From: a virus
Length of the DNA: 64,000 nt
Virus genome (UHGV): UHGV-0222911
Strand: one strand, 5' to 3'
Shown: piece after piece, positions 30,776-31,133 of the stretch
Position numbering within the stretch: the stretch's first letter is position 1
Layout: each line of letters opens with the position of its first letter
Translations under genes and position numbers: made by a program
Notes under the pieces: generated by a model
Seen by the model: only the letters and a program-made list of their open reading frames with translations
Told to the model about the DNA's origin: nothing
Database searches by the model: none

Positions 30776-30960
30776 TTTTCATTTCAAGATTGTGCAGGTA
30801 GAGTTCTGTAGAGAAATCTGTAGAGAGAATTTTGAACTCCAAAGAGAAAATTCATTTTCAAACTGTGCAGGTAATCTCCAAAGAGTTTTTTCATTTTCAA
30901 AACGTGCAGACCCCGCTCAGGTCGGGCAAGAAAAATCATTTTAGAATTGTGCAGGTAGGT
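30776..30960 (+). repeat. four direct repeats TTCATTTTCAA-N2-GTGCAGGTA
   Basis: Copies at about 30778, 30850, 30888 and 30935. Confidence 0.5.
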
Positions 30961-31133
30961 TTTTATAGACAGCCAGCCCAGCCCCTCTCCCCCTCTTACT
31001 CCCCCTCTCCCCAAAAGTCAAGAGAAAAATTTGTAGCGGATTGAAAAATAATTCTTGATTGTAGTTCTGTTTTGTGGTAGTCGCGTGCGCCCGTTTCATT
31101 ACAGTTTTTTCAAAAATATTTTTAAAATTTTTC

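What the first reader, a model, noticed from the sequence alone, without database searches (positions are those of the whole stretch)
30776..31130. Direct-repeat cluster and a 45-nt polypyrimidine tract upstream of the early-gene array
Four direct repeats TTCATTTTCAA-N2-GTGCAGGTA (30778, 30850, 30888, 30935) plus duplicated TCTGTAGAGA are followed by CAGCCAGCCCAGCCCCTCTCCCCCTCTTACTCCCCCTCTCCCC, a C/T-rich run that is highly atypical for this AT-rich genome, and then the first PeSL promoter. Three track ORFs here are low-complexity and probably non-coding. Candidate operator or protein-binding array, or an H-DNA-forming tract, controlling entry into the early array.
Basis: seen in the sequence. 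Interest (0 to 1): 0.5.

Follow-up and report, generated by a model that had tools for sequence, protein, structure and literature searches.

The report
Conserved non-coding repeat array, Felix O1-type phage
A 520-base untranslated gap in a Felix O1-like phage holds four strongly conserved same-direction repeats, most likely docking sites for a DNA-binding protein. The eye-catching C/T-rich tract beside them is a swappable, fast-changing segment that can fold oddly but is not itself conserved.

Summary
The window is a Felixounavirus (about 95% identical to wV8 and Pr103Blw). Positions 30706-31228 are a non-coding gap between the macro-domain gene's terminator and the first PeSL early promoter.

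- **Repeats.** Four same-orientation modules (W5-TCATTTY-N5-6-YGTGCAGGTA) occur only here in the genome. They are kept in Felixouna-, Moogle-, Susp- and Kolesnikvirus at codon-position-1/2 levels of identity, while the gaps and spacers drift.
- **ORFs.** No overlapping ORF survives across genera.
- **C/T tract.** It is a perfect 14+3+14 mirror repeat and the only canonical G-quadruplex motif in 64 kb. About half of the relatives carry an unrelated 55-nt sequence of equal length instead. The mirror and G4 features decay even within the C/T allele, and identical neighbouring genes sit next to either allele. Several assemblies break inside it.
- **Promoter.** The tract covers the spacer, -10 and start of a candidate leftward promoter, which is clear in the Erwinia relatives.
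- **Not the genome end.** The terminal repeat maps to 37333-37943.

Best reading: a protein-binding, iteron-like array transcribed from a divergent promoter. The specific role is unproven. My first guess is a replication origin, with a transcriptional control or insulator role close behind.

The parts
30735..30776 (+). Intrinsic terminator hairpin of the macro-domain gene (29920-30705). Its right arm, CAGGTAAGG, resembles a module right half-site.
   Evidence: Terminator scan. Annotated as a terminator in wV8 and KhF2. The arms co-vary in the Si3-like and Moogle-like relatives.
30775..30800 (+). Module R1: TTTTTCATTTC-AAGAT-TGTGCAGGTA
   Evidence: Half-site identity is 0.96 across 22 relatives, against 0.72 for the gap.
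30805..30826 (+). Duplicated TCTGTAGAGA (12-nt period) in the R1-R2 spacer. It is kept in Felixounavirus only.
   Evidence: TRTAGAGAG is otherwise seen only beside the terminal repeat.
30836..30873 (+). Module R2 with its leading block: ACTCCAAAGAG-AAAATTCATTTT-CAAAC-TGTGCAGGTA
30875..30909 (+). Module R3 with its leading block: TCTCCAAAGAG-TTTTTTCATTTT-CAAAA-CGTGCAG. The right half is truncated in this genus.
30910..30929 (+). Variable R3-R4 spacer. It holds a small hairpin (GACCCCGCTCAGGTC) that is replaced by GAGAAAAATCAGGTC in many relatives.
   Evidence: identity 0.65.
30930..30957 (+). Module R4: GAAAAATCATTTT-AGAAT-TGTGCAGGTA
30958..31012 (.). 55-nt variable tract, allele A (C/T-rich). 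About half of the relatives carry an unrelated allele B of equal length.
   Evidence: identity 0.57.
30982..31012 (.). Perfect homopyrimidine mirror repeat, CCCCTCTCCCCCTC-TTA-CTCCCCCTCTCCCC (H-DNA motif). The minus strand carries a four-run G-quadruplex motif.
   Evidence: Four assemblies end inside it.
30993..31021 (-). Candidate leftward sigma-70-type promoter P_L: -35 TTGACT (31021 to 31016), 17-nt spacer, -10 TAAGAG (30998 to 30993).
   Evidence: Read from the sequence. Allele B keeps TTGACT-17-TAGCCT with TGn. Erwinia phage phiEa104 has TTGACC-18-TATACT, 10 of 12 matches. This is an inference; it is weak (8 of 12, no T at -7) in this window.
31013..31065 (.). Strongly conserved block, AAAAGTCAAGAGAAAAATTTGTAGCGGATTGAAAAATAATTCTTGATTGTAGT. 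It contains the P_L -35 and its upstream A-tracts, and a second + strand TTGATT.
   Evidence: Identity 0.96 / 0.91; alignment.
31109..31228 (+). First early-promoter unit (PeSL): AT-rich UP-like tract, TTGACT-17-TAATAT (31134-31162), stem-loop 31173-31193, SD AGGAG, then the ATG at 31229.
   Evidence: annotated DR_6 in wV8.

Best explanation
The region is a non-coding cis-acting DNA element.

Anatomy: four same-orientation modules of about 25 bp each. Each module has an AT-rich left half, TTTTTCATTTY, and a right half, YGTGCAGGTA. Modules 2 and 3 (and 4 in sister genera) are preceded by ACTCCAAAGAG. I read them as docking sites for a sequence-specific DNA-binding protein, probably phage-encoded, because the right half-site differs between genera (GTGCAGGTA against GTGCATAG). 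The array lies in the untranslated stretch downstream of a conserved leftward host-type promoter (P_L), which is back-to-back with the first early promoter.

Proposed function: my most likely specific role is a replication origin. In that model an iteron-like nucleoprotein complex is activated or primed by transcription from P_L, and is used by the phage's T7-like primase-helicase and DNA polymerase. The C/T tract would be only the spacer, -10 and initial transcribed segment of P_L. It can form H-DNA or G4, but that potential is not the selected feature.

Shown versus inferred:
- Shown: the region is non-coding, the array is unique in the genome, the half-sites are selectively conserved, the tract is polymorphic, and this is not the genome terminus.
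- Inferred: protein binding, P_L activity, and the origin function.
For: - **Uniqueness and significance of the four modules:**
- **Phylogenetic footprint:** half-sites and the CTCCAAAGAG blocks are 0.91-0.98 identical across 22 relatives spanning three genera. Gaps are 0.72-0.84, spacers 0.65-0.81 and the tract 0.57. Third codon positions of the adjacent gene are 0.86 within the genus.
- **Same architecture in Erwinia Kolesnikvirus:** four copies, same orientation, 37-39 bp apart.
- **Linkage:** the array stays with the downstream early block when the upstream gene differs (Si3-like lineage, three modules).
- **No coding or structured-RNA signal:**
- **P_L:** TTGACT is invariant. 'TA' sits exactly 17 bp away in two unrelated tract alleles of equal length. 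The Kolesnikvirus counterpart scores 10 of 12.
- **Replisome:** T7-like, with a Toprim+DnaB_C primase-helicase, a PolA-type polymerase, an exonuclease and a ligase. From established knowledge, this kind of replisome starts from transcripts at the T7 primary origin.
- **Literature:** I found no paper describing an origin or this array in Felix O1-like phages.
Against: - No initiator or iteron-binding protein was identified. Ten proteins of the replication module gave only the primase-helicase.
- Duplex stability here is not exceptional. The weakest DNA of the window lies at about 1.0-1.2 kb and 38.0-38.4 kb.
- Module spacing (73/39/45 bp, varying by 2 bp between genera) is looser and wider than in classical iterons.
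- P_L in this window is weak: 8 of 12 matches, G instead of T at -7.
- The G-rich-RNA/R-loop argument holds only for allele A. Allele B gives a C-rich leftward RNA.
- There are no experimental data on transcription starts or replication initiation for this phage group.
Confidence: 0.33

Rival explanations
1. Transcriptional control or insulator region. The modules bind a regulator, phage or host, that modulates the divergent promoter pair (P_L and the first early promoter). Alternatively they block read-through from the 30-kb upstream + strand unit into the early array. In allele A, the C-rich, G-poor + strand RNA would add a Rho loading site behind the intrinsic terminator.
For: - The region sits between a terminator and the first strong early promoter.
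- The block around the promoters is conserved.
- The array travels with the early block.
- The allele A tract is the most C-rich 45-mer of the window and is untranslated.
- The Felix O1 paper states that temporal control and passage of terminators are unexplained (PMC3185647).
Against: - The modules are direct repeats, not dyad-symmetric, and lie 177-360 bp from the early -35. They do not overlap it.
- The other early promoters in the array have no such sites, so control of 'the array' would be marginal.
- The rut-like composition is absent in allele B.
Confidence: 0.27
2. A non-coding RNA gene. P_L drives an untranslated leftward RNA of about 250 nt, ending at the bidirectionally placed hairpin. 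Its four repeated motifs (UACCUGCACA-N5-GAAAAUGA) would act as a sponge or decoy for an RNA-binding factor or a complementary RNA.
For: - There is a candidate promoter with a conserved -35.
- No conserved ORF exists.
- The repeats all lie inside the predicted transcript.
Against: - RNAalifold on seven diverse sequences gives 0 compensatory pairs and a positive covariation term.
- There is no Rfam hit.
- The hairpin lacks a U-tract on the minus strand.
- The 5' part of the RNA is unrelated between alleles.
Confidence: 0.12
3. A DNA-entry or anchoring signal, analogous to the T5 injection stop region: a conserved untranslated repeat region that bounds the end-proximal block of host-takeover genes.
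For: - The true terminal repeat is at 37333-37943. The array therefore lies about 7.0 kb (8% of the genome) from the right end, exactly at the inner edge of the early block.
- The T5 iss is a conserved untranslated repeat region carrying DnaA boxes at 7.9% (bioRxiv 10.1101/866236).
- The Kolesnikvirus right half-sites (TGTGCATAA/G) match the DnaA-box consensus TTATGCACA within 0-1 mismatch.
Against: - There is no evidence that Felix O1-type phages inject in two steps, or of which end enters first.
- The half-site of this phage matches a DnaA box in only 6 of 9 positions.
- The early genes point toward the end.
Confidence: 0.07
4. The repeats reflect the codon structure of a small protein gene, as annotated in some records (wV8 gene 13; the minus-strand CDS in Pr103Blw).
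For: - ORFs of 50-84 aa are open on both strands, and several GenBank records annotate one.
- In allele B phages a 66-aa ATG ORF starts right after P_L.
Against: - The ORFs change frame, start and length between genera. wV8 carries a 2-nt deletion that shifts the frame.
- Module spacing changes from 39 to 41 or 37.
- Most start with TTG or GTG and lack an SD.
- There is no PHROG or Pfam family.
- No gene was called in the gap in 10 of 10 independent contigs.
Confidence: 0.03
5. The C/T tract itself is the functional element, acting as an H-DNA or G-quadruplex switch that gates early transcription.
For: - It is a perfect mirror repeat and the only G4 motif in 64 kb.
- Contigs from four assemblies stop within it, one running straight into the Nextera adapter. 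This points to a polymerase obstacle in vitro.
Against: - An unrelated sequence replaces it in 140 records.
- Close variants break the fourth C-run or the mirror.
- It is swapped between phages with identical neighbouring genes.
- Six other allele A assemblies read through it.
Confidence: 0.08

Closest known systems
Iteron-type replication origins (lambda ori with four O-protein iterons; plasmid oriV, P1 oriR)
   Same: Three to four direct repeats of about 20-25 bp in one orientation. They are unique in the genome, lie in an untranslated or AT-rich setting next to promoters, and have a species-specific repeat sequence.
   Different: The spacing is wide and uneven (39-75 bp rather than contiguous units of about 20 bp). 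No initiator gene is recognised, there is no clear DNA-unwinding element, and no consensus DnaA boxes occur in this phage.
Transcript-primed phage and plasmid origins (T7 primary origin, T4 oriF/oriG, ColE1 RNA II; mitochondrial CSBII)
   Same: A promoter fires into an untranslated segment. The phage has a T7-like primase-helicase and polymerase. In allele A the transcript would begin with a purine/G-run tract over a C-rich template, the composition that favours persistent RNA-DNA hybrids.
   Different: The host RNA polymerase would have to be used. The G-rich feature is missing in allele B, and no R-loop or initiation data exist.
T5 injection-stop (iss) untranslated repeat region
   Same: A conserved non-coding repeat cluster at the inner boundary of the terminal early-gene block, about 8% from a genome end. 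It is better conserved than many of its neighbouring genes.
   Different: T5 has inverted repeats, palindromes and eight DnaA boxes inside a 10-kb terminal repeat. Here there are four direct repeats outside a 0.6-kb terminal repeat, and two-step injection is not known.
PeSL (promoter-early stem-loop) cassettes of T4-type and Felix O1-type phages
   Same: The immediate right-hand neighbour (31109-31228) is a canonical member. The -35 and upstream region of the candidate leftward promoter is an inverted near-copy of the PeSL -35 region (18 nt, 83%).
   Different: The four modules and the tract are not part of any PeSL, and none of the other PeSLs is preceded by them.
H-DNA and G-quadruplex motifs
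   Same: A homopyrimidine mirror repeat with 14-nt arms and a 3-nt spacer; four G4-5 runs with loops of 3, 7 and 3 nt on the minus strand.
   Different: The motif is not conserved. It is a polymorphic allele, so it is a structural by-product or a lineage-specific modifier rather than the core element.

Membership tests
Iteron-type origin | Three or more direct repeats of about 17-25 bp, same orientation, clustered and unique in the replicon | tested here: met
   Four copies, all on the + strand, only at this locus. The arrangement is conserved across four genera.
Iteron-type origin | Adjacent AT-rich DNA-unwinding element | tested here: inconclusive
   The least stable 50-bp window of the region (31114) is the UP-like tract of the early promoter, at the 99.8th percentile. 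At 100-200 bp scale the region is unremarkable (93rd-96th percentile).
Iteron-type origin | Cognate initiator protein encoded by the replicon | tested here: inconclusive
   Pfam scan of ten replication-module proteins found only the Toprim+DnaB_C primase-helicase. A PHROG-based annotation of a relative lists no initiator. Many proteins there have unknown function.
Iteron-type origin | Replication initiates there | not testable with these tools
   This needs marker-frequency analysis or 2D gels.
DnaA-box cluster (oriC-like / T5 iss-like) | Matches to TTWTNCACA | tested here: not met
   The window's right half-sites read ACCTGCACA on the minus strand, 6 of 9. Only the Erwinia phage version (TTATGCACA / CTATGCACA) fits, with 0-1 mismatch.
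Transcript-primed origin | Promoter directed into the element | tested here: inconclusive
   P_L has TTGACT-17-TAAGAG here (8 of 12). It is TAGCCT with TGn in allele B and 10 of 12 in phiEa104. No transcript data exist.
Transcript-primed origin | RNA/DNA composition favouring a persistent hybrid | tested here: inconclusive
   Met in allele A, where the leftward RNA is G-run and purine-rich. Not met in allele B, where it is C-rich.
Operator array | Sites overlap or abut the regulated promoter; usually dyad-symmetric | tested here: not met
   The nearest module ends 177 bp upstream of the early -35 and about 35 bp downstream of the P_L -10. The modules have no internal dyad.
H-DNA motif | Homopurine-homopyrimidine mirror repeat with a short spacer | tested here: met
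   30982-31012, arms 14, spacer 3, the longest in the window; the simulation maximum was 12. Formation in vivo was not tested.
H-DNA / G4 as functional element | Conservation of the structure-forming property in relatives | tested here: not met
   Allele B replaces it in 140 records. Allele A variants break the C-runs or the mirror.
Genome terminus / packaging site | Coincides with the direct terminal repeat | tested here: not met
   The annotated 581-bp DTR of Pr103Blw maps to window 37333-37943. The UAB_Phi87 DTR (608 bp) was determined experimentally (PMC4837284).
Protein-coding gene | ORF and reading frame conserved in relatives | tested here: not met
Structured non-coding RNA | Covariation-supported structure or Rfam membership | tested here: not met
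   0 compensatory pairs; no Rfam match above noise. Only the minus strand was folded as an alignment.
PeSL cassette | Sigma-70 promoter + stem-loop + SD immediately before a small early gene | tested here: met
   This applies to 31134-31228 only. The repeats and the tract lie outside it.

The most novel reading that the evidence does not exclude
The element is the long-sought replication origin of Felix O1-type phages. It would be a hybrid of two origin types. Host RNA polymerase starts at P_L inside a mirror-repeat/G-quadruplex tract, and the G-rich transcript stays hybridised as an R-loop, stabilised by G4 on the displaced strand. That hybrid primes the T7-like polymerase, while the four iteron-like modules position a phage loader for the primase-helicase. 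Allele B would then be a functionally distinct, structure-free variant, giving a natural experiment on whether non-B DNA tunes origin firing.
Probability: 0.1. Interest if true: 0.7.

Novelty: new member of a known kind. Interest (0 to 1): 0.4.

Why it matters
Felix O1-type phages are widely used for Salmonella and E. coli typing, biocontrol and therapy. Even so, their origin of replication and their temporal control of transcription are unknown; the Felix O1 genome paper says so explicitly.

This array is the best-conserved non-coding element near the early region. It is unique in the genome and is mis-annotated as small genes in many records. It therefore gives a defined 190-bp target for binding, deletion and marker-frequency experiments.

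Practically, the allele A tract is a reproducible assembly breakpoint. That explains truncated 'complete' genomes in the databases.

Tried and rejected
- **Genome end or packaging site.** Two GenBank records and two IMG/VR contigs stop in the tract, which first suggested a terminus. I rejected this because the annotated and experimentally determined terminal repeat maps 6.4 kb away. The stops are better explained by a library or sequencing obstacle plus PeSL repeats, given the adapter read-through and snap-back ends.
- **The '480-bp insertion' in KhF2-type phages.** It is an extra gene cassette after the promoter, not a change in the array.
- **Protein-coding.** Rejected.
- **Structured RNA or a known RNA family.** No support.
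- **Tandem repeat.** Tandem Repeats Finder reports nothing.
- **Host-factor sites checked by eye** (DnaA, IHF, CRP, LexA, sigma-54, sigma-E, sigma-32). None fits all four copies in this phage. In phiEa104 two modules read as leftward sigma-70-like promoters, but the E. coli phage versions score only about 7 of 12.
- **DNA-unwinding element.** Not distinctive.
- **The tract core elsewhere.** The 14-mer also occurs in an unrelated family of roughly 100-kb contigs. I judged this a coincidental or separate motif and did not pursue it.
- **Literature.** Searches found no transcript maps, origin mapping or description of the array. The PhageMaP study of Bas63 reports genes only.

Full report
**Identity and setting**

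The window is a Felixounavirus. Positions 30500-31400 are 94-95% identical to Pr103Blw, wV8 and about 240 other records. The finding lies in a 523-bp gap (30706-31228). On its left are the macro-domain gene (29920-30705, +) and that gene's terminator hairpin (30735-30776). On its right is the first small early gene (31229-31609), which is led by a promoter + stem-loop + SD unit, TTGACT-17-TAATAT at 31134-31162. The same unit recurs at 32922, 33786 and 36169, and none lies upstream.

**Checking the observation**

- The four repeats are real and non-random. The pattern gives 4 matches against 0.23 expected, with 0 of 100 shuffles reaching 4.
- A profile HMM of the module finds only these four in 64 kb.
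- The remaining third of the genome, checked in wV8, has none. In IMG/VR, multi-copy hits are confined to 84-94 kb contigs of this subfamily.
- TCTGTAGAGA is duplicated.
- The tract is the most C-rich 45-mer of the window and the only canonical G-quadruplex motif, on the minus strand.
- The tract is also a perfect mirror repeat, CCCCTCTCCCCCTC-TTA-CTCCCCCTCTCCCC (30982-31012), longer than any found in 40 simulated sequences.

The stated consensus and the '45-nt polypyrimidine' label are slightly loose. The substance is confirmed.

**The region is non-coding**

- ORFs of 32-84 aa are open on both strands, and various records annotate them as genes.
- Across 23 relatives the ORFs change frame, start codon and length.
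- wV8 has a 2-nt deletion in module 3.
- Module spacing is 73/39/45 bp here, 75/41/45 in Moogle- and Susp-like phages, and 37/37/39 in Erwinia phage phiEa104. These changes are not multiples of three.
- The ORFs hit no PHROG or Pfam family of note.
- Independent gene calls on ten contigs leave the gap empty.
- There is no Rfam match.
- A consensus fold of the minus strand shows no compensatory pair.

**What is conserved**

Pairwise identity across 22 relatives:

| Segment | Identity |
|---|---|
| Module half-sites | 0.95-0.98 |
| CTCCAAAGAG blocks before modules 2 and 3 | 0.93-0.97 |
| 5-nt gaps inside modules | 0.72-0.84 |
| Inter-module spacers | 0.65-0.81 |
| Variable tract | 0.57 |
| Block 31013-31065 | 0.91 |

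Within the genus the modules (0.96-1.0) are as constrained as first and second codon positions of the neighbouring gene (0.97-0.98). Third positions there are 0.86.

The number, order and orientation of the modules hold in four genera. One Salmonella lineage (Si3-like) has three modules and a different upstream gene, but the same tract, conserved block and early promoter. The array therefore belongs with the early block.

The right half-site co-varies by genus: GTGCAGGTA in the E. coli, Salmonella, Citrobacter and Shigella phages, and GTGCATAG/A in the Erwinia phages. This argues for a phage-encoded reader rather than an invariant host protein. The Erwinia version is a near-consensus DnaA box, but this phage's version is not (6 of 9).

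**The tract**

Between the conserved flanks, relatives carry one of two unrelated 55-nt alleles. Allele A is the C/T tract. It is also present, less symmetric, in Moogle- and Susp-like phages. Allele B is GGTGGGTGCAGGTGGGGATGTCGCCATTTCTCACAAGGCTACCACATCTGGAAAT, found in 140 phage records.

Contigs encoding a macro-domain protein identical to the window's sit next to either allele. Allele A variants break the fourth C-run or the mirror. So the non-B-DNA potential is real as sequence but is not under purifying selection.

The tract does have a practical effect. GenBank records EC106 and Andreotti and IMG/VR contigs L017 and L018 all stop within about 10 nt of ...CTCTTACTCC. L018 runs straight into the Nextera adapter, and Andreotti's ends are snap-back artefacts. 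Six other allele A assemblies read through. I interpret this as a library-dependent polymerase obstacle; that is an inference from general knowledge of G4 templates.

**Not the genome end**

The 581-bp terminal repeat annotated in Pr103Blw maps to window 37333-37943. This agrees with the Bal31 and run-off result for UAB_Phi87 (PMC4837284). The array therefore lies about 7 kb (8%) from the right end, at the inner edge of the early block.

**A divergent promoter**

On the minus strand an invariant TTGACT (31021 to 31016) has upstream sequence that mirrors the early promoter's -35 region (18 nt, 83%). Exactly 17 nt after it comes TAAGAG in allele A, TAATAG in wV8, and TAGCCT/TAGTCT with a TGn in allele B. 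In phiEa104 the corresponding site is TTGACC-18-TATACT, 10 of 12 matches, back-to-back with the early promoter.

I therefore propose a leftward promoter, P_L, whose spacer, -10 and start lie inside the tract. That would explain the equal allele length. Its transcript would run over the four modules toward the hairpin. In this window P_L is weak, and it is unverified.

**Mechanism**

The firm conclusion is that this is a cis-acting DNA array with the signature of protein binding, placed in a transcribed untranslated segment between divergent promoters.

For the specific role I favour a replication origin, at about one chance in three. The arguments for are unique iteron-like repeats, promoter-linked activation, and a T7-like replisome that classically starts from transcripts.

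The arguments against:
- No initiator was found.
- There is no distinctive unwinding element.
- The module spacing is loose.
- The R-loop-friendly composition is limited to allele A.

A transcriptional control or insulator role is almost as likely. An RNA product, a T5-iss-like entry signal, a structural switch in the tract, and a coding gene are progressively less likely.

**Comparison with known systems, and novelty**

The element resembles iteron origins and transcript-primed origins in anatomy, and the T5 iss region in position. It fails or leaves open several defining features of each, so it should not be filed as a member of any. I found no description of it in the literature on Felix O1, wV8 or relatives.

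It is best called a previously undescribed member of the general class of phage cis-acting repeat arrays. It is of moderate interest because it offers a concrete candidate for the unknown origin or temporal control site of a much-used phage genus.

Noticed in passing
window 37278-38455: A 1.2-kb untranslated region holds the direct terminal repeat (37333-37943). It carries about 29 same-strand copies of YTGTTAR, which may be a terminase/packaging array (my guess, not tested).
   Followed up: partly
window 30807, 30819, 37563, 38202, 38293, 38426: The 9-mer TRTAGAGAR/TRTAGAGAG on the + strand is shared between the finding region and the flanks of the terminal repeat. For YRTAGAGAR there were 11 hits against 5.7 expected, 6 of them in these two non-coding regions.
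   Followed up: partly
L018 end (IMG/VR 3300045988_009833); L017; L003 (Andreotti); L004 (EC106): Public contigs and records end inside the C/T tract. One carries the Nextera adapter fused after CTCTTACTCC. Andreotti has inverted snap-back duplications at both ends and lacks about 200 bp up to the early promoter's ribosome-binding site. These 'complete genomes' are truncated here.
   Followed up: yes
L244-L253 (contigs encoding the identical macro-domain protein): The same protein is followed by allele A in some contigs and allele B in others. The 55-nt tract is therefore exchanged by recombination between otherwise near-identical phages.
   Followed up: partly
L056 4380-4620 and L119 7990-8230 (Si3-like Salmonella phages): A lineage with only three modules, a different upstream gene and a palindrome (ATCTGTATAGGTCTGTACAGAT) in place of the R1-R2 spacer. 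It keeps the same tract, conserved block and early promoter.
   Followed up: partly
L129-L243 (many 78-118 kb IMG/VR contigs): The 14-mer CCCTCTTACTCCCC is also conserved in an unrelated phage contig family, in an AT-rich non-coding context (TTAC-CCCTCTTACTCCCC-ATATAACGTC). Its meaning is unknown.
   Followed up: no
window 36932, 41239, 37601: Further short pyrimidine tracts, CCTTTCCCTTTCC(TTTCC), lie on both sides of the terminal repeat, with a purine-rich counterpart (AAAAGGGAAGGGAA) inside it.
   Followed up: no
L002 2200-2700 (KhF2; also XTG1, ekra, LF82P9): An extra cassette of about 480 bp with two small genes is inserted directly after the first promoter/stem-loop unit, ahead of the homologue of the first early gene. 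This is an example of PeSL-mediated cassette shuffling.
   Followed up: partly
window 990-1200: This is the least stable (most AT-rich) duplex of the window. It is the divergent intergenic region between the DNA polymerase gene and the replication-gene block, with tandem TTGACA boxes. It is an alternative candidate origin or early control region.
   Followed up: no
window 31060-31088: A second + strand promoter-like element, TTGATT-17-TAGTCG, has a conserved -35 (TTGATT/TTGACT) and a conserved TA. It lies upstream of the canonical early promoter and is followed by a small hairpin that varies between genera with apparently compensating changes (CGCGTGCGC / CGCATACGTGCG / GCGTACACGC).
   Followed up: no
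L024 3990-4198: A chimeric IMG/VR contig. The phage sequence is joined at the 30909-30927 hairpin to GC-rich, host-like DNA that encodes a P-loop motif on the opposite strand.
   Followed up: no
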